Below, one piece after another: positions 18,206 to 50,527 of a stretch of 64,000 nucleotides of DNA (the stretch's first letter is position 1; each line of letters begins with the position of its first letter). This DNA comes from Chloroflexota bacterium. Lineage in GTDB: Bacteria > Chloroflexota > UBA6077 > SHYK01. The stretch is from NCBI GenBank assembly GCA_009377635.1, contig WHTR01000001.1, positions 41,257 to 105,256 of the forward strand. The letters run 5' to 3'. A program made the position numbers and the translations under genes. The notes beneath the pieces are model-generated. The model did not search any database. It was given only the letters and a program-made list of their open reading frames with translations, and was not told the origin of the DNA.

Positions 18206-18544
18206 ATGAGAGAACACAGCAGCCACCCGTCCCAGCGGCGCTACCCGCCCGAACTCAAAGACCGGGCTGTCCGGCTCGTATTCGAGACCGCGGCCGAGCG
18301 CGGTGACCACCACGGCGCGGTGACGATCGTCGCCCATCAGCTGGGGATCGGCCCGGAGTCGCTCCGCACCTGGGTTCGGCAGAGCGAGATCGACGCCGGT
18401 CGCCGGGCCGGCCTCACGACCGAGGAGCGCGAGCGAATGAAGGTCCTGGAGCGGGAGAACCGGGAGCTCCGCCGGGCCAACGAGATCCTCAAGAGCGCGG
18501 CGGCTTTCTTCGGGGCGGAGCTCGACCGCCGCTCGCCGCGATGA
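18206..18544 (+). CDS. IS3-family transposase OrfA (HTH)
   Basis: ATG at 18206 is preceded by GGAGGA. …LERENRELRRANEILKSAAAFF leucine-zipper region typical of IS3 OrfA. Confidence 0.8.
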   Translation: MREHSSHPSQRRYPPELKDRAVRLVFETAAERGDHHGAVTIVAHQLGIGPESLRTWVRQSEIDAGRRAGLTTEERERMKVLERENRELRRANEILKSAAAFFGAELDRRSPR

Positions 18545-19229
18545 TCTGCTACATCGACGAGCATCGTGGGTCGTACCGGGTCGAGCCGATCTGCCGGATG
18601 CTGGCGATCGCCCCGTCGACGTACTACGCGGGGAATGTCCGTCCACCGTCGGTGCGATCTGTCCGGGACGAGGAGCTCAGCCGCGCCATCGTCGACGTGC
18701 ACCGCGAGCACTTCGGGGTGTACGGCGTGCGCAAGGTCTGGCGGGCGCTCCGCCGTCGAGGGGCGGAGGTCGGCCGCGACCGGGTCCGCCGGATCATGCG
18801 CAAGCTCGGCCTCGCCGGGGTCGTCCGCGGCAAGCAGAAGCGGACGACGATCCCGGCACCGGAGAGCGAGCGGCCGACTGACCTCGTCAACCGGACGTTC
18901 GCCGCGACCGCCCCGAACCGGCTGTGGGTCGCCGATGTCATGTACGTCACGACCTGGTCGGGGTTCGCCTTACCCGCGTTCGTCATCGACGCGTTCAGTC
19001 GGCGGATCGTCGGCTGGCGGGTGAGTGCCAGCCTGCGCGCCGAGCTGGCCCTCGACGCGCTCGAGATGGCGATCTGGCAGCGCCAGAGCGACGACCTCAC
19101 GGGCCTCGTCCACCACTCTGAGACAGTACCTTGCTATCCGCTACACCGAACGGCTCGCTGCTGCCCGCGCGATTGCCTCGGTCGGCTCCCGAGGGGATTC
19201 GTACGACAACGCCCTGGCCGAGACTGTCG
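18541..19229 (+). pseudogene. IS3-family transposase OrfB, internally deleted (~8 nt, frameshift at ~19115) and 3'-truncated
   Basis: DDE core up to LVHHSE, then the frame switches to RQYLAIRYTERL...GDSYDNALAETV. The expected HSDRGSQY is reduced to HHSE/RQY. Confidence 0.75.
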
Positions 19230-35118: not shown

Positions 35119-36997
35119 AATTCCTGTTTTGGCGATTTCGGGAAGTCATGGCTCGCATCATCATCGGCAGGGCGACGCCTGACAGCTCGCTCAGAAGACG
35201 CGGGGACGCTTCGTACGGTACCTTCAAACCTTCCCAAAGTGCCAGTTTTGAAAAATTGTGACCGGGCCTCGGTTAACTACGACGGAAGGCCATATCGTTG
35301 GCAGCGCTATCGCGAGCTGCCAACGGACCCCGCGCGGTCGAAGAACCTGGGCATGTACGGAATCTCCATGCGCGAGAACCGGGAGGTCCCACGGTCGCCC
35401 GTCCCGTTGATCACAGGGCGGGCCGCTCAGGGAAGGCCAAGGTCACAAGCCTGAGATGCACGACCGTGGGAAGTCGGACGTGCCCGTAGTACCTGCGAAG
35501 TCGCCGAACAAGGCCACGGCTGCGGAGGCGGCGGAGGAAAGGGGCACGGCCAAGGGAAACACGACCAGCACAACACGTCCCGGACGCAGCGCCGGGCCAG
35601 GCGTGCCACGCGGGCTGGATCGTGTGCGCGAAGTAGCACGAAGGGACAAGGAAGCACGGTTCACGGCGCTGCTGCACCACGTCGACGTGGACCGCCTCCG
35701 AGCGGCCTACCTGGCGATTCGCCCTCAGGCCGCGCCCGGGGGTGGACGGAGTGACGTGGCGAGCCTACGGCGAGGACCTGGAGGCCAACCTCCGGGACCT
35801 GCACGCCCGGGTCCATCGCGGCTCCTACCGGGCAAAGCCATCACGCCGGGCGTACAACCCGAAGGCGGACTGGCGGCAGCGGCCGCTCGGCATCGCCACG
35901 CTGGAGGACAAGATCGTCCAGCGGGCCGTCGTCGAGGTGCTCAACGCCAACTACGAGGTGGACTTCCTCGGCTTCTCCTACGGGTTCCGACCGGGGCGCA
36001 GACCGCACGACGCGCTCGATGCGCTCACGGGTGGGCTTGAACGAAGAAGGTGAACTGGGTGCTCGACGCGGATATCCGCGACTTCTTTTCCAGGCTTGAT
36101 CACACCTGGTTGGGGAAATTCCTCGAGCACCGTATCGCGGACCGACGGATCCTGCGTCTCATCCGTAAGTGGCTGAGCGCAGGGGTCATAGAGGACGGAA
36201 GCTGGTCAGAGAGCGTAGAGGGGGCACCGCAGGGAGCATCGGCATCGCCGTTGCTCGCAAACGCCTACCTTCACTACGTCGTGGACCGCTGGGTCCGGCA
36301 ATGGAGACGCCGGCACGCGCACGGAGACGTGGTCTTCGTGCAGTTCGCGGATGACTTCGTTGCCGGTTTCGAGCATCAGGCCGACGCACAGCAGTTCCTC
36401 GCCGATCTACGCGAACGGTTCGCGAAGTTCGGCCTGGAGCTGCATCCCGACAAGACGAGGCTCATCGAGTTCGGGTGCAACGCCGCCCGCAACCGAGCGG
36501 CCCGAGGCGACGGGAAGCCCGAGACGTTCGACTTCCTCGGCTTCACGCATCTCTGCGGGAAGCCGAAGAGCGGGCGCTTCTGGGTCAAGCGCAAGACCAT
36601 CTCGAAACGGATGCGAGCCAAGCTGGCCGAGGTCAATACCTCGCTGAAGCAGCGCCGGCACCAGCCCATACCGGTGCAAGGGCAATGGCTGGCAAGCGTG
36701 GTGCGAGGGCACCTCGCCTACTACGCCGTGCCCGGCAACACAGACGCCGTGGCGGCCTTCCGCACCCAGGTAACCCGGCACTGGTTCAAGGCGCTGCGGC
36801 GCCGCAGCCAGCGCTCGCGGATCAACTGGACCCGGATGGACCGTCTCGCCACTCGATGGCTACCGGCCGCCCGCGTGAAGCATCCCATCCCGAGTGCGCG
36901 CTTCGACGCTCGTACCCAAGGCAGGAGCCCAGTGCGCTAGCAGTGCACGCTGGGATCTGTGCGGGGGGCAGCCCGTAAGGGGTGTCCCTACCGCGAC
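35119..36997 (+). mobile_element. group II intron (intron 1), degenerate; 5' boundary uncertain
   Basis: RT/maturase ORF in domain IV. Candidate domain V GAGCCCAGTGCGCTAGCAGTGCACGCTGGGATC at 36925..36957 overlaps the RT stop. Ends …CGCGAC at 36997 (AY terminus). Confidence 0.6.
35456..36940 (+). pseudogene. group II intron reverse transcriptase/maturase with two 1-nt frameshifts (near 35735 and 36035)
   Basis: Leader MHDRGKSDVPVVPAKSPNK… then GVDGVTW…LGIATLEDKIVQ…FADD…maturase region, spread over three frames. Frameshift 1 lies in a GGGGG run. Confidence 0.65.
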
Positions 36998-44424: not shown

Positions 44425-45720
44425 ATGCTCAAGAAAGAGGAAAACGAGCTCCTGACGCGAGTGGGGCCCGGCACGCCCGGCGGCGAGATGCTGCGGCGCT
44501 ACTGGCAGCCCGCCGCCCTCTCCGTCGAGCTTCCGCCTGGCGGCCCGCCGGTCCCCCTACGCCTGCTGGGGGAGGGCCTCGTCATGTTCCGCGACCAGGA
44601 GGGGCGACTTGGCCTCCTCGGACTGCACTGCAGCCATCGTGGGGCTGACCTCAGCTATGGGCGGCTGGAGGATGGTGGAATCCGCTGCCTTTATCACGGC
44701 TGGCTCTACGACGTCGAGGGCCGATGCCTCGAACAGCCGGGCGAGCCGGCTGGCAGCACGTTTCACGACCGTATTCGTCACCCCGCCTACCGGTGCCACG
44801 AGGTCGCAGGCGTGATCTTTACCTATATGGGCCCAGGCGAGCCACCGCTCTTCCCGAACTACGAGCTGTTCCGCGTGCCGGACGACAACCGCTGGGTTCA
44901 CAAGCAGTACCACGAGTGCAGCTATCTCCAGGGCAACGAGGGGAACATCGACTCGATTCACGTGCGGTTTCTGCACCGTTATCTGCCCGGCAGTCGGTTC
45001 CGCCGCTCCAGGGAGCTGGACGGCGAGGGCCGCCCGGCTCGACCCTTCGATGAAAGCTTGCCCTCCTCAGCGTCGAGGTGCGAGGAGACCCACTTCGGCG
45101 TTCGCATCTACTCGCTCCACGACACGCACGCCGCCACCTACATGCGGACGACAAACTTCGTTATCCCGCTGACGTGTGCCGTGCCGGGCGGGCCCGCGCC
45201 GCCGGGTGACGGCTACCTGATGAACTGGCACGTGCCGATTGACGACACGCACCACTGGCGGTTCTCCATGGCCTTCAAGCGCTCCGGCCCGCTCGACCCG
45301 AACTACGCGCAGGCGCGGGCCTCTGTTACCGACGAGACCTTCCGCTCGCCCCGCAATAAGGCGAACCGCTACCTACAGGATCGCGAGGAGCAGAAGCACG
45401 ACACGTACGCCGGCATGGGCCCGATCTTCGTCGTGCAGGACGCCTTTGCGACCGAGACCGCGGGCGAGATCCAGGACCGCTCGAGAGAGCACCTGGCGGC
45501 GAGCGATGCCGGTCTCGCAGCCGCTCGCCGGATGATGCTGCGGGCAATCAAGGACGTGCAGGAGGACCGCGACCCGCCGCACGTCATCCGTCGACCTGAA
45601 GACCAGGACCGCCTGCTGGAGATCAGCGTGACCAGCGAGCAGGTGCCAGTCGGCACGACGTGGGAGCAATACCGCGTGCAGCGCGGGGTCACGTTCGGCG
45701 CCATCGGCATCGAGGACTAG
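44425..45720 (+). CDS. Rieske non-heme iron oxygenase alpha subunit
   Basis: MLKKEENELLTRVGPGTPGGEMLRRYWQP; CSHRG…C.YHGW; ends in TAG. Confidence 0.8.
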   Translation: MLKKEENELLTRVGPGTPGGEMLRRYWQPAALSVELPPGGPPVPLRLLGEGLVMFRDQEGRLGLLGLHCSHRGADLSYGRLEDGGIRCLYHGWLYDVEGRCLEQPGEPAGSTFHDRIRHPAYRCHEVAGVIFTYMGPGEPPLFPNYELFRVPDDNRWVHKQYHECSYLQGNEGNIDSIHVRFLHRYLPGSRFRRSRELDGEGRPARPFDESLPSSASRCEETHFGVRIYSLHDTHAATYMRTTNFVIPLTCAVPGGPAPPGDGYLMNWHVPIDDTHHWRFSMAFKRSGPLDPNYAQARASVTDETFRSPRNKANRYLQDREEQKHDTYAGMGPIFVVQDAFATETAGEIQDRSREHLAASDAGLAAARRMMLRAIKDVQEDRDPPHVIRRPEDQDRLLEISVTSEQVPVGTTWEQYRVQRGVTFGAIGIED

Positions 45721-45725
45721 GATCG

Positions 45726-47444
45726 ATGGATCTCCACCTTCCGGTCCGGGCGCTGTCGACGCTTGTGCTCATGCTTGCCGCGTGTACGCCGACCAGCGGC
45801 CCGCGAGAGCAAGCCGCGGAACCCGTGCAGCAGCAGAGTGCTTCTCGTGCCCTAGTCATGGCGGTCAACACCGAGGTGAAGACGCTCGCGGCGAAGATGC
45901 TCGGCCCGACTAACCCTGAGCGGACGACGCGGATCTTCAATGCCGGCCTCTCGCTCGTCGACGCCCAGGGCGTCGTGCGCCCGTACATGGCCGAGGCTCT
46001 GCCCCAGCTCAACAGTGATAGTTGGAGGGTCTTTCCGGACGGGCGCATGGAGACGACGTGGAAGCTCCGCCCGGGCCTCACATGGCACGATGGGACCCCG
46101 CTGAGCGCGGAGGATTTCGCCTTCGGCTACCGCGTCTATACCTCGCCGCTCGCCGTCTTCTCGGCGAAGCCGCAACATCTGATGTCCGAAGTCTCCGCCC
46201 CGGACCCCACGACGCTCATCATCACCTGGAGCAGGTCGTATCCCGATGCGACACAGCTCTCGTCCACCGAGTTCGGCCCGCTCCCCCGCCATCTGCTGGA
46301 ACCGCAGTTCTCCAGCTACCTGCAGGACGCCGCCAACCCAGAGCCCTTCCTCGCCCTCCGCTACTGGAGCACGGAGTTCGTCGGTAACGGCCCATTCCGC
46401 CTAGCGAGCTGGGATGCCGGTATCCAGATGGAGGGCGCGGCTTTCGACGGCCATCCGCTCGGACGTCCGAAGATTGACCGGGTCGTCATCCGCTTCTTCA
46501 CCGACAACAACGTCACCTTGACGAACATCCTGGCGGGCAACGTCGACCTCACGATGATCCAGACGCTCCCGTTCTAGCAAGGCTTGCTGCTCGAACGGGA
46601 CTGGGCGACCAGCAAGCGTGGCTCGGTGATCTACCAGTCGACGTCCACGCAGACTATCGCCGTCCAGCAGCGTCCGGAGTTTGTTGGCTCCCGTGCCCTC
46701 CTGGACGTCCGCGTCCGAAGGGCTCTTGCCCACGGAATCGATCGCGATGCGCTGAACGAGGCGCTCTTCTCAGGCAAGGGTTCGATCGTCCACTCGTGGG
46801 TGGATCCCAGGCAGTCGATCTTTCCCGAGGTGGACCGGGCCATCACGAAGTATCCCTACGATCCACTTCGCCTTGACCAGCTCTTGACCGAAGCCGGCTT
46901 CCATCGCGACCGGGAAGGCTTTTTCGCGAGCGAGGCGGGCGAGCGATTTCAGCCGAGTCTGTGGGTCACGTTCAGTACCCAGCTCGAGCGGCAGCTCGCG
47001 ATCATGACGGATACGTGGCGGCAGGCGGGCGTCGACTTCCAACCGTATATCATCCCGGGCGCGCAGGCGCGCGATAACCAGTTCCGGTCAACGTTCCCCG
47101 GCCTGCTCGGCTACGGAGTCAGTCCCGCCACGATCTCCGCGCTTGAGACGTTCACCACGGACCAGATTGGCAGCGCGTCGACGCGCTGGGGCGGCCAGAA
47201 CCGCGGCGGGTGGGCAAGCCTCGAGTACGACCGCCTGCTCGTCGCATTCCACAGCACGCTCGATACGACGGCCCGCACCCGACACGCGGTGGACATGCTC
47301 AAGCTGCTGAGCGAGGAGGCGCCGACCTATCCAGCCTTCCGCGACCAGGGCATCATCTGCTACGTCGCGGGCCTCAGGGGACCGGAACAGCAACTGCCCG
47401 AAGCCCTCGCCCACTGGAACATCCACCTCTGGGAGCTCAGTTAA
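45726..47444 (+). pseudogene. SBP family 5 lipoprotein paralog interrupted by an in-frame TAG (46576..46578) at a conserved Glu position
   Basis: Signal MDLHLPVRALSTLVLMLAAC. ...TMIQTLPF*QGLLLERDW aligns to ...VRWEQAQVLRNEW of 20994..22730. Downstream frame is intact to 47444. Confidence 0.7.
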
Positions 47445-47454
47445 GGACTTGAGG

Positions 47455-47758
47455 ATCGCGGTAGGGACAGCCCTTGCGGGCTGCCCCCCGCACAGATCCC
47501 AGCGCGCGGCATTACCGCACTGGGCTCCTGCCTCGGGTACGGGCGTCGAAGCGCTCACGAGGGGAGGATGCCTTGTCCCTTCGTGCTCCTTCACGCACAC
47601 GATCCAGCTCGTTTGGCACGCCTGGCCCGGCACTGCGTCCGGGACGTGTTGTGCTGGTCGTGTTCCCCTTGGCCGGGCGCCTTTCCTCCACCACCTCCGC
47701 GGCCGAAGCCTTGTTCGGCGGCTTCGCAGGTGTCGGGTCGGGGGAGGCGGCGGAGCAC
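47455..47758 (-). mobile_element. 3' segment of an intron-1-like group II intron (host intron 1'): RT leader remainder, ORF deletion, domain V/VI
   Basis: Reverse complement aligns to 35494..35660 and 36900..36997 of intron 1. Candidate domain V at 47495..47527. Ends …CGCGAT|CCTCAAG 11 nt after the SBP stop. Confidence 0.55.
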
Positions 47759-49852
47759 GCTCCGCTACCTCCGCCCGCCCTTCCGAACCGCCCGTGCGGT
47801 TTTCCCGCAAGCGGCTCTCACCGGGAGTAGCCCTTCTGGCGGTAGTAGCTCGCCATGCTGGGGATCAGCTGCAGGAGGTTGACCAGGCCGCATTCCCCAT
47901 AGAGCTTCGCTCGGGGTAGTCGCTTCCACCCCGCGTTGCGCCACCGTTTGTGGCGCCAGCTCCAGATACGCCGCACAATCCAGCCATTGAGCCGGTGGAA
48001 CAACCGCCGCACATGTGCACGGCGGTAGTAGTTGCCCCACCCTCGGATGACGGGGTTGAGCTCGTCCAACACCCCTTCGAGGGCCTTCGGGTTCCGCCGA
48101 TTGGTAATCTGGCGTACCCTGTTCTTGAAGCGCTCGACCGAGCGGTCCCGAGGATACGCGTACAGGTCCGGGACTCCGGCCTTGTACTTCATCCCCGTCC
48201 CCCGCTTGATCTTGTACCCCAAGAACTCGAAGCCCTGAGCGACATGGACGATGCGCGTCTTGTCCGGGTGAACCCGAAGCCCGAGTTCTCCCTCCAGCAC
48301 TGCTCGGGCGCTCGCCAGCGCCCGCTCCGCCTCCCGCCGGGACGCGCAGACGATCACCCAATCATCGCCGTACCTGGTGAGGGCAGAGCCAGCCTCTGCC
48401 ATCTTCTCATCGAAGACGTGCAGATAGACGTTGCTGAGCAACGGGCTGACCACCCCACCTTGAGGAACCCCAGCGATCGTGGGCTCCACCTGTCCATCCC
48501 GGAGCACGCCGGCCTGGAGAAACTGCCATAGCAGCCTCAACACCTTGCTGTCCGCCACCCTCTCCGCCACGAAGTCGACCAGGGTGGAGTGCGAGAGCGT
48601 CCCGAAGTAGTCGGCGATGTCCGCGTCCACCACCCAGCAGTTCCCTGCCTTCAGCTGCCGCCAGATGCGCCGCATGGCCATATGCGTCGACCGCCCCGGG
48701 CGAAAGCCGAAGCTCTCGTCTCGAAACGTCGGCTCAAAGATCGGCTCCAGGACCTGCACCAGGGCCTGCTGACATACCCGATCCATCACCGTCGGGATTC
48801 CCAACGGGCGCTTGGTGTTCGAGCCTGGCTTGTCGATCTCCACCCGCCGCACGGGCCGCGGCCGATAGCTGCCATCTTTCAGCTTCTGATGCAGGAGAGC
48901 GAGGTAGTGGTCCCGGTCCTCCTCAAACCGAGCGACGGTCATTCCGTCAACGCCGCCAGCGCCCCTCTTCGCCTTGACGCGCTCCCACGCCCCGGCCAGG
49001 TTCCGTGGGTCATAGACCTGGTAGATCAGCGAGTGCGCCTTGCGTGCCTGCACGGACTGCACCTACCTGGCTCCCCATCGCCGGCTCTCGGGTCTCCTCA
49101 GCGCCAGCGCCTCGGTCATTGCCGCAGCAACCATCAGTCCGCTGGCATCCCTACTCGCCCGATCCCCGGCTCGGCTCGCCATCTCCCGACGTGACCCCTT
49201 CCCCCTGGTCGGCGCCTTTTGGGTCACCGCCCGCCGCCTCACGATGGAGACGGTCCCGGGGCTTGTGTTCTTCCCCGGTTCATGAGTACCACGGGTCACT
49301 CCGACTTCTCGCACGGCATCCCCGACGACTTCACCTGCCGGCTTATACGCCCAGGTACCCACCCCCGTCGAGGCGGGACCGTACGAGACCTCCCGGGGTA
49401 ACGTATGCTCCTTTCCCACCGTGCCGCCCGCACACACCTTGATGCGCCCAGGCACTCCAAGTATTTCCTTCGCCGCCATAGTGCCGGCTCGGTCTCGCCT
49501 GGACTTTGGCCGACCGGTTCGCCTTGTTCGGCTCCGGCCCGGTGGTTCGCCGCAAACCCTTCAGACCCCACCTCACGGTGGGCGCCCTGTCCTGCGTGCC
49601 TGACGCCGAAGACCGCGAGACGAGTGGCGGCCGACATGACGGTCGGTAGGTGACGCGCGCACATCCCGGTCGTTTCCTGAACCGGCGCCCATGTCCCGTC
49701 ACCGTGGGCCATCCCCTGCCACACCCCCTCTCGTCTCCTCCAACACCAGCCACACCCGGCGAGGCATTACCCCCGCCTTTGGCTACGGACCCCGCTTGGA
49801 GAACGGTCCGGCTGGACTTTCACCAGCTAGGAACATGCGCCGCCCGGCGCAC
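47759..49852 (-). mobile_element. group II intron (intron 2), apparently intact, nested inside intron 1'
   Basis: 5' GTGCGCC at 49852, 3' …CGAC at 47759. Domain V GAGCCGCTTGCGGGAAAACCGCACGGGCGGTTC at 47784..47816 (minus), right after the RT stop. ~2.1 kb. Confidence 0.65.
47818..49062 (-). CDS. group II intron reverse transcriptase/maturase (no endonuclease domain evident)
   Basis: 414 aa. GAGGVDGMT…LGIPTVMDRVCQQAL…YGDDWVIV…maturase X region. Possible frameshifted leader upstream (49063..49479). Confidence 0.8.
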   Translation of the reverse strand: MQSVQARKAHSLIYQVYDPRNLAGAWERVKAKRGAGGVDGMTVARFEEDRDHYLALLHQKLKDGSYRPRPVRRVEIDKPGSNTKRPLGIPTVMDRVCQQALVQVLEPIFEPTFRDESFGFRPGRSTHMAMRRIWRQLKAGNCWVVDADIADYFGTLSHSTLVDFVAERVADSKVLRLLWQFLQAGVLRDGQVEPTIAGVPQGGVVSPLLSNVYLHVFDEKMAEAGSALTRYGDDWVIVCASRREAERALASARAVLEGELGLRVHPDKTRIVHVAQGFEFLGYKIKRGTGMKYKAGVPDLYAYPRDRSVERFKNRVRQITNRRNPKALEGVLDELNPVIRGWGNYYRRAHVRRLFHRLNGWIVRRIWSWRHKRWRNAGWKRLPRAKLYGECGLVNLLQLIPSMASYYRQKGYSR

Positions 49853-50230
49853 ACTATGAACCAGTCCGACTTCCCCTGCCCGTCCATCATCGGCGTACGT
49901 CTCTCGACTTCCCGATGCGACCCGCCGAGCCATCCCCGACGGGTGGACAGGGGACCTCCCAGCTTCTGCGCAAGGTGCTTCCGTGCATGCTCGGGGTCTT
50001 CGACTCCGCAGGGCCCCAGCCCATCTCGCGATACCGATGGGCCAGATGTTGCCTTCCGCCTAACCCGACGGCGTCGGCGCCCCACTCGAGGGACTTTTCG
50101 GAGCTCAATACCCAGCCTGCACGTACCCCTGTCAACGTTTCACCCGCGTCGTTACCGCCGCCGGCGCATGACTCGGAGAACAAGGTGGTTCGCTACTCCT
50201 TCCTTGTGCGAGACTTTCACTCGCTACACC
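49853..50230 (-). mobile_element. 5' segment of host intron 1' including RT start remnant MMDGQGKSDWFIV; 5' boundary uncertain
   Basis: Minus strand ATGATGGACGGGCAGGGGAAGTCGGACTGGTTCATAGT immediately precedes the GTGCGCC 5' end of intron 2. Parallels MHDRGKSDVPVV of intron 1. Confidence 0.4.
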
Positions 50231-50527
50231 CCGCCAGCTTTGCTGGCGCTTTCGAGGACGAGCCCCAGCGCTGTCGCCACGCCCCTGGCGAGCGTCGTCT
50301 TACCCGTTGCCGGGGCGCCCGACACAATGACCAGCATCGGTCGGGATGTCACACCGCCATGGCATTCAGGCATCCGTGACGCCCTACCGGACCCTGGCGT
50401 AGATGGCCGCATCACGTGGTTCCGGGAACCCGCTGAACCGGGCATATCGACGGAAGACGCCCTCGCGGTGCATCCCGGCCTTGACCATCACTCGCCCCGA
50501 CGCAACGTTCTCCAGATCACAGTAGCC

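What the first reader, a model, noticed from the sequence alone, without database searches (positions are those of the whole stretch)
47455..50230. Group II intron nested inside the RT leader of another group II intron; predicted splicing restores the host reading frame
Minus-strand sequence 47455..47758 aligns to the 3' third of intron 1 (35119..36997). It spans the RT leader from PAKPPNK onward, an internal deletion of almost the whole RT, and domain V/VI. Immediately upstream on the same strand lies a complete intron with an intact 414-aa RT (47818..49062). It has a canonical domain V right after the RT stop, a GTGCGCC 5' end at 49852 and a …GAC 3' end at 47759. Joining its flanks gives …GGGAAGTCGGACTGGTTCATAGT|ACCTGCGAAG…, which encodes MMDGQGKSDWFIV|PAKPPNK. 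That is colinear with intron 1's MHDRGKSDVPVVPAKSPNK. So intron 2 sits exactly inside the leader codons of an ORF-deleted relative of intron 1. Intron-in-intron homing with a frame-preserving junction is rarely seen this cleanly. The host intron's 3' end lies 11 nt past the stop codon of the SBP pseudogene.
Basis: partly seen in the sequence, partly recalled or inferred. Interest (0 to 1): 0.75.

Follow-up and report, generated by a model that had tools for sequence, protein, structure and literature searches.

The report
Group II intron nested inside another intron
A complete mobile group II intron sits inside a decayed second one, and its relatives elsewhere almost always sit at this same conserved spot of other group II introns, so it is a parasite of its own kind; such nesting is already known in bacteria and archaea.

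Summary
The nested arrangement is real. Two coordinates need correcting.

- **Inner intron:** window 47732..49852 (minus strand, 2,121 nt). Its 3' end is 47732, not 47759.
- **Outer intron:** 47455..~50253, not ..50230.
- **Evidence for nesting:** joining the flanks gives a gap-free alignment to the relative at 35283..36997. That alignment includes about 200 nt of ribozyme sequence upstream of the junction.
- **State of the outer intron:** it has lost 1,242 nt of its RT gene.
- **What the insertion site is:** the 5' strand of the internal loop of ribozyme domain III. In this host class the same bases also code for the RT's N-terminal leader.
[quoted passage not shown] - **Recent spread:** copies within one genome are identical or nearly so.
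- **The window's outer intron is probably a chimera:** its domain III stem pairs at only 5 of 7 positions, against 99% in the class. Its two halves differ in relatedness to intron 1, and its flanking exons do not match. The cause could be recombination or a mis-assembly.

Twintrons, and introns that home into other introns, are already known (Thermosynechococcus, Methanosarcina, Photorhabdus). I found no published case of a domain III target shared across host lineages.

The parts
47732..49852 (-). Inner group II intron, complete, 2,121 nt
   Evidence: Has 5' GUGCG, an RT/maturase ORF and domain V/VI. In 35 junctions from other genomes similarity begins at nt 1-3; the 33 read through end at nt 2121.
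49477..49482 (-). EBS1 (ACUAUG) of the inner intron, in a hairpin loop GCCGGC-ACUAUGG-CGGC
   Evidence: Perfect Watson-Crick match to the flanking exon CAUAGU (49853..49858). The L034 copy has ACUACG next to exon CGUAGU, a compensatory change.
49403..49582 (-). Domain I core of the inner intron
   Evidence: RF02001 group-II-D1D4-3, 41.2 bits, gathering score 32.
49191..49307 (-). The inner intron's own J2/3 and domain III (AAGUCGGA-GUGACCC-GUGGUAC...GGGGGAAG-GGGUCAC)
   Evidence: Same architecture as the target motif but reading GUGGU instead of GUAGU. The stem shows compensatory changes among family members.
47818..49062 (-). Inner intron RT/maturase ORF, 414 aa, no endonuclease domain, YGDD active-site motif
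   Evidence: Pfam RVT_1 and GIIM. 100% identical to an NCBI protein named 'MAG: group II intron reverse transcriptase/maturase [Chloroflexi bacterium]', plus about 80 listed relatives at 81-88% identity. Nearest solved structure is GsI-IIC RT, E=6e-70.
47732..47819 (-). Domain V/VI of the inner intron; candidate branch-point A 7 nt from the 3' end
   Evidence: RF00029, 42.2 bits, gathering score 40. The branch-point A is read from the sequence.
49853..50253 (-). 5' segment of the outer (host) intron: domains I-II, J2/3 and the 5' strand of domain III
   Evidence: RF02005 group-II-D1D4-6 at 49994..50217, 185.5 bits. The 5' end GAAAGCGCCAGC matches the start of many class members.
49853..49870 (-). 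Target site in the host: J2/3 GUCGGA (49865..49870), domain III stem 5' strand CUGGUUC (49858..49864), IBS1 CAUAGU (49853..49858)
   Evidence: Motif shared by nearly all hosts of this intron lineage. Corresponds to Ll.LtrB nt ~467-483 in domain III (PMC1874635).
49879..49890 (-). Start (ATGATGGACGGG) of the host's leader ORF; after removal of the inner intron it reads 85 codons and ends at TAA 47512..47514
   Evidence: The leader frame is conserved as coding in this class.
47674..47731 (-). Rest of host domain III; the 3' strand of the basal stem is GCGCCCG (47674..47680), after GGAGGAAAG
   Evidence: Pairs with the 5' strand at only 5 of 7 positions. The class average is 99.0% paired over 75 sequences.
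47559..47570 (-). Scar of the RT deletion in the host: 12 nt in place of 1,242 nt of intron 1 (35652..36893)
   Evidence: blastn of the host's 3' part against intron 1.
47455..47529 (-). Domain V/VI of the host intron; 3' end ...CCCUACCGCGAU
   Evidence: RF00029, 32.9 bits, below the gathering score, E=6e-4 locally. 88% identical to intron 1's 3' end. Other class members end the same way (...CCCUACCGCGA, then U, C or nothing), with unrelated sequence or, in L046, another intron's GUGCGCC after it.
35283..36997 (+). 'Intron 1': a 5'-truncated relative of the host with a frameshifted RT. It carries an unoccupied copy of the target (GUCGGACGUGCCCGUAGU|ACC at 35490|35491)
   Evidence: Its domain III stem CGUGCCC/GGGCACG is perfect.
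50254..50445 (-). 5' exon of the host: N-terminal fragment of a P-loop NTPase gene (Walker A GAPATGKTT), cut off by the intron
   Evidence: ORF 50224..50445. Weak Pfam P-loop hits, all below their curated cutoffs. The 3' exon does not continue this gene.
45660..47444 (+). Solute-binding-protein gene (SBP_bac_5) with an in-frame TAG at 46575..46577. Its 3' end faces the host intron's 3' end on the opposite strand.

Best explanation
**What it is.** The inner element (47732..49852, minus strand) is a complete retromobile group II intron. It encodes an RT/maturase without an endonuclease domain. It entered by reverse splicing into DNA after the sequence CAUAGU, which its EBS1 loop (ACUAUG) matches perfectly.

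**Where it landed.** That sequence is the 5' strand of the internal loop of ribozyme domain III of another group II intron, just after J2/3. In this host class (Rfam D1D4-6 type) the RT ORF starts upstream of domain III. The same nucleotides are therefore codons 13/14 of a conserved N-terminal leader.

**A lineage-wide habit.** The inner intron belongs to a lineage whose normal homing site is this domain III motif in other group II introns. The motif is one of the most conserved parts of the ribozyme and lies in DNA the cell does not need. It therefore offers a safe target that is renewed whenever host introns spread.

**Inferred consequence.** While the inner intron is present, the host's domain III is split by 2.1 kb. 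The inner intron would have to splice first for the host ribozyme to fold. That would be obligatory sequential splicing.

**State of the window's host.**
- It has lost its RT to a 1,242-nt deletion.
- Its two halves probably come from two different host copies. They were joined either by recombination between two copies of the inner intron or by a mis-join of the metagenome assembly across that repeat.

**Shown:** boundaries, colinearity, EBS1-IBS1 pairing, the domain III identity of the site, and recurrence across hosts.
**Inferred:** retrohoming at replication forks, splicing order, present-day activity, and the chimeric origin.
For: **Boundaries and nesting**
- Rfam places two sets of intron parts on one strand.
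- The spliced flanks align gap-free to intron 1 across the junction, E=3e-82.
- The genome-collection scan returned 37 loci with relatives of the inner RT. blastn places the intron's 5' end in 32 of them. In the 33 junctions with both ends read, similarity runs from nt 1-3 to nt 2121.

**Site recurrence**
- 33 of 35 junctions read ...(C/A)GUAGU|A(C/G) (two or three with one base changed), preceded by ..CGGA or ..CCGA and a variable 7-nt stretch.
- In 20 loci scanned with Rfam, the 5' flank carries another group II intron's domain I on the same strand in most, and a second domain V/VI follows downstream in several.

**Domain III identity**
- The 7 nt before (C/A)GUAGU pair with the 7 nt after (G/A)AAG.
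  - Across 15 distinct hosts: 94.3% paired, 6 of 7 pairs with compensatory changes, covariation score 0.84 against 0.07-0.20 when the partner is slid, and 0 of 500 shuffles reaching it.
  - Across 75 D1D4-6-class introns: 99.0% paired with 45 different stem combinations; slid controls give 26-53%.
- The same motif in Ll.LtrB (CGGA-GUAC-UCGUAGUAG...AAAGG-GGUAC) encloses nt 499. PMC1874635 places nt 499 in the loop of domain III. The LtrA start codon lies 90 nt further downstream.

**EBS1**
- ACUAUG pairs with CAUAGU in the window. The L034 copy has ACUACG next to CGUAGU.

**Recent, independent insertions**
- Copies within one genome differ by 0-3 nt yet sit in different hosts.
- Host RT ORFs are intact (458-523 aa) in 9 loci. 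They are 30-64% identical to each other except one closer pair at 70%.
- The identical RT protein is also encoded on a contig with a different 3' exon.

**Leader is coding in this host class**
- 75 of 76 sequences are stop-free in the leader frame. Third codon positions vary most.

**Chimeric host**
- The stem pairs at 5 of 7 positions against 99% for the class.
- The 5' half is 70.6% identical to intron 1 and the 3' half 90.7%.
- RNAfold recovers domain III in intron 1 but not in the spliced host.
- The 5' exon is a truncated P-loop gene. The 3' exon is the antisense of the solute-binding-protein gene's end.
Against: - No expression or splicing data exist, so current activity and splicing order are untested.
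- I could not identify EBS2 or EBS3. Exon positions -7 to -12 vary among hosts of identical intron copies, so how the distal exon is recognised is unknown.
- Conservation of the target motif may largely reflect the host ribozyme's own constraints rather than the invader's requirements.
- Some loci share identical host flanks (L018, L019, L020, L023). Part of the spread may therefore be movement of whole twintrons.
- The host's domain V/VI scores below Rfam's gathering threshold (32.9 against 40).
- The 3' anchor used for the 15-host covariation test was picked by best complementarity after AAG. That alignment leans towards the structure; the 75-sequence test used a fixed anchor.
- The 3' segment is generally more conserved than the 5' segment in this class. 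This weakens the identity argument for a chimera.
- The domain III assignment for non-Ll.LtrB classes rests on motif homology plus covariation, not on a full structural model.
Confidence: 0.85

Rival explanations
1. One reading: a single clean homing event into the RT leader codons of one intact RT-deleted relative of intron 1. Here the reading frame is the relevant feature and the case is a rare curiosity.
For: - The junction is colinear with intron 1 and keeps an 85-codon ORF open.
- The leader really is coding in this host class.
Against: - The same site is used in host lineages where it is not in an ORF. The stem flanking the site covaries as RNA.
- The lineage does this routinely.
- The two host halves fit each other poorly.
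Confidence: 0.1
2. The host's chimeric look is an assembly artefact. The metagenome assembler joined the 5' flank of one twintron to the 3' flank of another across the identical 2.1-kb inner intron. In the real genome there would be two ordinary twintrons at two loci.
For: - The window comes from a MAG contig.
- The inner intron is a multi-copy repeat in related genomes.
- The same RT is found with another 3' exon in a read-set assembly.
- The flanking genes do not match, and the domain III stem does not pair.
Against: - Assemblers usually break contigs at such repeats rather than bridging them.
- True recombination between intron copies produces the same picture. Nothing in the sequence separates the two.
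- Either way the nesting of an intron in domain III of a host intron stands.
Confidence: 0.25
3. The composite twintron moves as one unit, with the outer intron's ends used for mobility. On this view the recurrent association reflects copying of whole twintrons rather than repeated homing of the inner intron.
For: Several loci in one genome have identical host flanks around the inner intron: L018, L019, L020 and L023. Composite mobility has been discussed for T. elongatus twintrons (PMC2882425).
Against: - Identical inner copies sit in hosts whose RTs are only 30-64% identical and whose domain III stems differ.
- One copy is in a non-intron site that keeps only ACGUAGU|AC (L024).
- The window's host has no RT of its own.
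Confidence: 0.1

Closest known systems
Thermosynechococcus elongatus twintrons (F3 introns TeI3a-e inside F1 introns TeI4a-e; Mohr et al. 2010, PMC2882425)
   Same: - One bacterial group II intron inserted at a conserved site at the very start of another intron's RT ORF.
- Inner copies are identical while outer introns have diverged, read as recent independent retrohoming.
- Interpreted as proliferation by targeting another mobile element.
   Different: - There the site lies between two start codons in domain IV, the inner introns have no ORF, and hosts are one closely related family.
- Here the site is in the domain III internal loop, the inner intron carries its own RT, and hosts span lineages with RTs mostly 30-64% identical.
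M.a.I5 / UA.I3 / P.l.I2 introns, which insert into the RYADD-coding motif of other introns' RT ORFs (Dai & Zimmerly 2003, as summarised in PMC4424553; Tourasse & Kolsto 2008, PMC2504315)
   Same: - A whole lineage of endonuclease-less group II introns whose homing site is a highly conserved motif of other group II introns.
- This produces twintrons and nested arrays, described as a perpetual homing site.
   Different: - Their target is protein-coding sequence (the RT active site) inside domain IV, which leaves the host ribozyme intact.
- Here the target is a ribozyme core element (J2/3 and the domain III loop), so the host RNA fold is interrupted.
Trichodesmium erythraeum twintron (Pfreundt & Hess 2015, PMC4649490) and Euglena chloroplast twintrons
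   Same: The inner intron interrupts a structural domain of the outer ribozyme, so the inner must splice first. This was shown experimentally in Trichodesmium.
   Different: Those are single or organelle-specific cases at other positions (domain I in Trichodesmium). They are not a lineage with one recurrent site across many hosts, and no splicing data exist here.
RmInt1 homing into insertion sequence ISRm2011-2 (PMC1802570)
   Same: An endonuclease-less group II intron uses another mobile element as its natural safe homing site.
   Different: The target there is an IS element, not another group II intron.

Membership tests
Mobile bacterial group II intron (inner element) | 5' end GUGYG | tested here: met
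   GUGCG at 49848..49852. The 5' end is GUGCG in 32 of 35 related junctions and GCGCG in three.
Mobile bacterial group II intron (inner element) | Domain V/VI at the 3' end with a bulged branch-point A | tested here: met
   RF00029 at 47732..47819, 42.2 bits, gathering score 40. An A lies 7 nt from the 3' end (read from the sequence).
Mobile bacterial group II intron (inner element) | Intron-encoded protein with RT and maturase (X) domains in domain IV | tested here: met
   RVT_1 E=7e-36 and GIIM E=2e-19; 414 aa; no endonuclease domain found.
Mobile bacterial group II intron (inner element) | EBS1-IBS1 pairing with the 5' exon | tested here: met
   ACUAUG (49477..49482) pairs with CAUAGU (49853..49858). 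L034 shows a compensatory ACUACG/CGUAGU pair.
Mobile bacterial group II intron (inner element) | EBS2-IBS2 and EBS3/delta pairings | tested here: inconclusive
   No convincing EBS2 or EBS3 found. Exon positions -7 to -12 vary among hosts of identical intron copies.
Mobile bacterial group II intron (inner element) | Self-splicing and retromobility | not testable with these tools
   Indirect evidence only: near-identical copies at different sites within genomes.
Twintron (intron within an intron) | Outer intron parts on both sides of the inner intron, on the same strand | tested here: met
   RF02005 at 185.5 bits upstream. Domain V/VI downstream at 32.9 bits (below gathering), 88% identical to intron 1's 3' end.
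Twintron (intron within an intron) | Removing the inner intron restores a continuous outer intron sequence | tested here: met
   Gap-free alignment across the junction to intron 1 and to 76 unoccupied class members.
Twintron (intron within an intron) | The restored outer intron is a functional ribozyme | tested here: inconclusive
   The 5' end and domain V fit the class. However, the domain III basal stem pairs at 5 of 7 positions against 99% in the class, the RT is deleted, and the flanking exons do not match.
Twintron (intron within an intron) | Sequential splicing observed in RNA | not testable with these tools
   No transcript data available.
Intron-targeting lineage of the M.a.I5 / P.l.I2 type | Insertion in the RYADD-coding motif of another intron's RT ORF | tested here: not met
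   The site is the domain III loop (C/A)GUAGU|A, far upstream of the RT active site. It works like that lineage but is not a member by this criterion.
T. elongatus F3-type twintron former | ORF-less inner intron inserted between two start codons of the host RT ORF in domain IVa | tested here: not met
   The inner intron has its own RT. The site is at codon 13/14 of the leader, within domain III.

The most novel reading that the evidence does not exclude
The inner intron may represent a broad-host-range lineage of group II introns that parasitises other group II introns, in soil Actinomycetota and Chloroflexota. Its universal homing site would be the conserved internal loop of ribozyme domain III.

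Domain III would then be a general hot spot. Introns of the unrelated D1D4-6 class are themselves found inserted one nucleotide upstream (...CGUAG|), in the 3' strand of the same stem, and in RT ORFs of other introns.

Two features of the D1D4-6 host class, if not yet described, would also be new. Its RT ORF overlaps J2/3 and domain III, so those bases carry both codons and ribozyme structure. And a large sub-family of the class lacks the canonical GU at the 5' end.
Probability: 0.4. Interest if true: 0.6.

Novelty: new variant of a known kind. Interest (0 to 1): 0.5.

Why it matters
- **Known kind, new target.** Twintrons and introns that home into other introns are established, so the window's case is not new in kind. 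What may be new is the choice of target: a core ribozyme motif shared by deeply diverged group II introns, rather than a coding motif or a site in one related family.
- **A testable host-range model.** If confirmed, one intron could invade many intron lineages, and every host intron that spreads would create a new target.
- **A natural case of obligatory ordered splicing.** The host's domain III is split until the inner intron leaves.
- **Practical warning.** Multi-copy nested introns are places where genomes recombine and where metagenome assemblies can be mis-joined.
- **Annotation caveat.** In this host class, the 'conserved leader peptide' of the RT coincides base for base with ribozyme elements.

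Tried and rejected
- **Exact-sequence look-up of the inner RT** found only one 1.4-kb read-set contig. The source genome's other copies could not be inspected. That contig did reveal a second insertion context.
- **EBS2 and EBS3.** I looked for complements of exon -7..-12 and of GUCGGA in domain I, and for changes in intron copies that track host differences. Nothing convincing emerged.
- **Host as a IIC intron inserted after a terminator-like hairpin** (GCGCCAGC-AAA-GCUGGCG). Rejected: that hairpin is part of the intron, conserved with compensatory changes in L027 and in the class consensus.
- **Target as domain IVa (the RT-binding site).** Rejected after mapping the motif to Ll.LtrB domain III (PMC1874635).
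- **Leader conservation as purely an RNA effect.** Rejected for the D1D4-6 class, where the frame is kept open and third codon positions vary most.
- **Codon comparison of host against intron 1 alone** was uninformative.
- **Rfam and intron 1's 3' end.** Rfam did not report intron 1's domain V/VI even at E<=1, although it is 88% identical to the host's.
- **Intron class.** The nearest solved RT is GsI-IIC, but the RNA is too large and EBS1 too long for a IIC intron. The class is left unassigned.
- **Literature access.** Dai & Zimmerly 2003 and Simon et al. 2008 are not held. Their content is cited only through PMC4424553 and PMC2504315.
- **Literature searches** for Actinobacteria or Chloroflexi twintrons, or for domain III homing, found nothing.
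Full report
**1. What is in the sequence**

On the minus strand, Rfam finds two sets of group II intron parts:
- A strong domain I-IV match at 49994..50217 (RF02005, 185.5 bits).
- A second domain I match at 49403..49582 (RF02001, 41.2 bits).
- A domain V/VI at 47732..47819 (RF00029, 42.2 bits, above the gathering score).
- A weaker domain V/VI at 47455..47529 (32.9 bits, below it).

Between them lies a 414-aa ORF (47818..49062) with RVT_1 and the group II maturase domain. The sequence reads ...TTCATAGT|GTGCGCCGGG at 49853|49852, and ...CCGACCCGAC|ACCTGCGAAG at 47732|47731. The junction sequence he quotes is correct.

**2. The nesting is real**

Joining 49853 to 47731 gives a sequence that aligns without a gap across the junction to the element at 35283..36997. 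Identity is 78% over 372 nt (E=3e-82), of which about 200 nt lie upstream of the junction in ribozyme sequence. A further 103 nt at the 3' end align at 88%.

Relative to that element, the outer intron lacks 1,242 nt of RT, with a 12-nt scar at 47559..47570.

**3. Independent confirmation of the boundaries**

A scan of one genome per species returned 37 loci encoding relatives of the inner RT (70-84% identity for all but a few distant or partial matches). Most come from Actinomycetota MAGs. blastn places the intron's 5' end in 32 of them, giving 35 junctions. Similarity starts at nt 1-3 in all 35, and in the 33 read through to the 3' side it ends exactly at nt 2121.

**4. The unexpected part: the flanks elsewhere**

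- In 33 of 35 junctions the 5' exon ends ..CGGA (or ..CCGA), then 7 variable nt, then (C/A)GUAGU (two or three have one base changed). The 3' exon starts A(C/G).
- Rfam on 20 of these loci shows another group II intron's domain I on the same strand just upstream in most. A second domain V/VI lies about 1.5-2.2 kb downstream in several.
- The downstream host RT ORFs are intact (458-523 aa) in nine loci. They are 30-64% identical to each other apart from one pair at 70%, and 34-42% identical to the inner RT.
- Within a genome, the inner copies differ by 0-3 nt.
- One copy (L024) is in a non-intron site that keeps only ACGUAGU|AC.

This intron lineage therefore homes routinely, and recently, into other group II introns of several deep lineages.

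**5. What the target is**

The 7 nt before (C/A)GUAGU pair with the 7 nt that follow a conserved (G/A)AAG 35-60 nt downstream:
- On 15 distinct hosts, 94.3% of cells pair and 6 of 7 pairs show compensatory changes. The covariation score is 0.84, against 0.07-0.20 when the partner is slid, and 0 of 500 shuffles reach it. In that test the 3' anchor was chosen by complementarity, so it leans towards the structure.
- With a fixed anchor on 75 distinct D1D4-6-class introns from metagenomes, 99.0% of cells pair, using 45 different stem combinations. Slid controls give 26-53%.

The same architecture occurs in Ll.LtrB: CGGA-GUAC-UCGUAGUAG...AAAGG-GGUAC. A stretch I recalled from memory proved 100% identical to Lactococcus plasmids. 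In intron numbering, the motif starts near nt 467 and encloses nt 499, and the LtrA start codon is at nt 574. [quoted passage not shown]

The target is therefore J2/3 plus the basal stem and internal loop of domain III. The insertion point is in the 5' strand of that loop.

**6. Recognition**

The inner intron has a hairpin loop ACUAUGG at 49477..49482. It is a perfect match to the window's exon CAUAGU. The L034 copy has ACUACG next to CGUAGU. I found no EBS2 or EBS3. Exon positions -7 to -12 are the variable stem and differ among hosts of identical copies.

The inner intron's own domain III reads GUGGU where targets read GUAGU.

**7.

It is right for this host class. In 76 distinct D1D4-6-class sequences, the frame across the site is stop-free from -20 to +190 in 75. 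The other two frames are stop-free in 0 and 32. An ATG sits at the same place in most of the translations printed, and third codon positions vary most.

The conserved peptide blocks coincide with RNA elements:
- GKSD corresponds to GGGAAGUCGGAC (J2/3).
- VVP corresponds to GUAGUACC (the loop).
- The ...ER block before AKGN corresponds to GGAGGAAAG (the (G/A)AAG anchor of the stem's 3' strand).

In this class the region thus carries both codons and ribozyme structure. In the other host lineages the site is not in an ORF, so domain III is the common denominator.

**8. The window's host**

- *5' end.* Class members begin (G/A)(U/A)GCGCCGGGAUAAACCGG about 194 nt upstream of a conserved block. The window reads GAAAGCGCCAGC at 50253.
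- *3' end.* Other class members end the same way (...CCCUACCGCGA, then U, C or nothing) with unrelated sequence after it; in L046 the next base starts another intron's GUGCGCC.
- *Domain V.* It fits the class consensus.
- *Domain III stem.* CUGGUUC/GCGCCCG pairs at only 5 of 7 positions, where the class pairs at 99% and intron 1 and L027 are perfect.
- *Folding.* RNAfold recovers domain III for intron 1 but not for the spliced host.
- *Relatedness of the halves.* The 5' half is 70.6% identical to intron 1 and the 3' half 90.7%. The 3' region is generally the more conserved, so this is only suggestive.
- *Flanking exons.* The 5' exon is a truncated P-loop NTPase gene. The 3' exon is the antisense of the solute-binding-protein gene's end.

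Together these points suggest that the two halves come from different host copies. They would have been joined across the inner intron either by recombination or by the assembler. The identical RT protein is also found with a different 3' exon in a read-set contig, so more than one context exists.

**9. Intron 1**

Intron 1 is a relic. Homology to the class begins near 35283. The RT is in three frame pieces. It carries an empty copy of the target at 35490|35491.

**10. Comparison with the literature**

- Twintrons are known in bacteria and archaea (PMC4424553).
- T. elongatus F3 introns insert between the two start codons of F1 RT ORFs. The inner copies there are identical and the outer ones diverged (PMC2882425).
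- M.a.I5, UA.I3 and P.l.I2 insert in the RYADD motif of other introns' RT ORFs (PMC2504315).
- The Trichodesmium inner intron sits in domain I and splices first (PMC4649490).

Searches found nothing on Actinobacteria or Chloroflexi twintrons, or on domain III as a homing site. Two key papers are not held, so prior description cannot be excluded.

**11. Verdict**

The phenomenon belongs to a known kind. Its target, a ribozyme core motif shared across host lineages, is a new variant as far as I can find.

Noticed in passing
window 50245..50253; loci L040-L159: Many D1D4-6-class introns lack the canonical GUGYG 5' end. Of 98 sequences with enough upstream DNA, about 39 start GUGCG, about 27 (G)A(A)AGCG and about 16 GAGCG. 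The rest gave another match or none. These are rough regex counts, and a few matches fall away from the expected start. The window's host and L027's host have GAAAGCG.
   Followed up: partly
loci L059, L079, L137, L105, L140, L152, L142, L143, L153, L080, L046: D1D4-6-class introns are themselves inserted in other group II introns. Sites seen: after domain III ...CGUAG| (one nt upstream of the inner lineage's site), in the 3' strand of the domain III stem (..GAAGGGGC|), inside RT ORFs (..VLNAIY|), and head-to-tail after another intron's domain VI.
   Followed up: partly
window 46575..46577: The solute-binding-protein gene (45660..47444, +) is interrupted by a single in-frame TAG (...TLPF*QGLL...). 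This is either a pseudogene or a sequencing error.
   Followed up: no
window 18502..18615 (+): An ALIL pseudoknot (RF01497, 76.6 bits), a cis-regulatory RNA; from memory, the frameshift signal of IS3-family transposases. If so, another mobile element lies in the window.
   Followed up: no
The 165 nt between it and the start of intron homology match nothing I tested.
   Followed up: no
window 47512..47529 and class members: Domain V of the D1D4-6 class has a conserved G-A opposition where most group II introns have G-U at the catalytic-triad pair (GAGCC...GGGAUC). The RT stop codon lies inside domain V.
   Followed up: partly
L006 and L031: Two copies of the inner-lineage intron are themselves interrupted by about 1.4-1.8 kb of inserted DNA. 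In L006 the break is at intron nt ~440; in L031 it is at nt ~865. The inserts were not examined.
   Followed up: no
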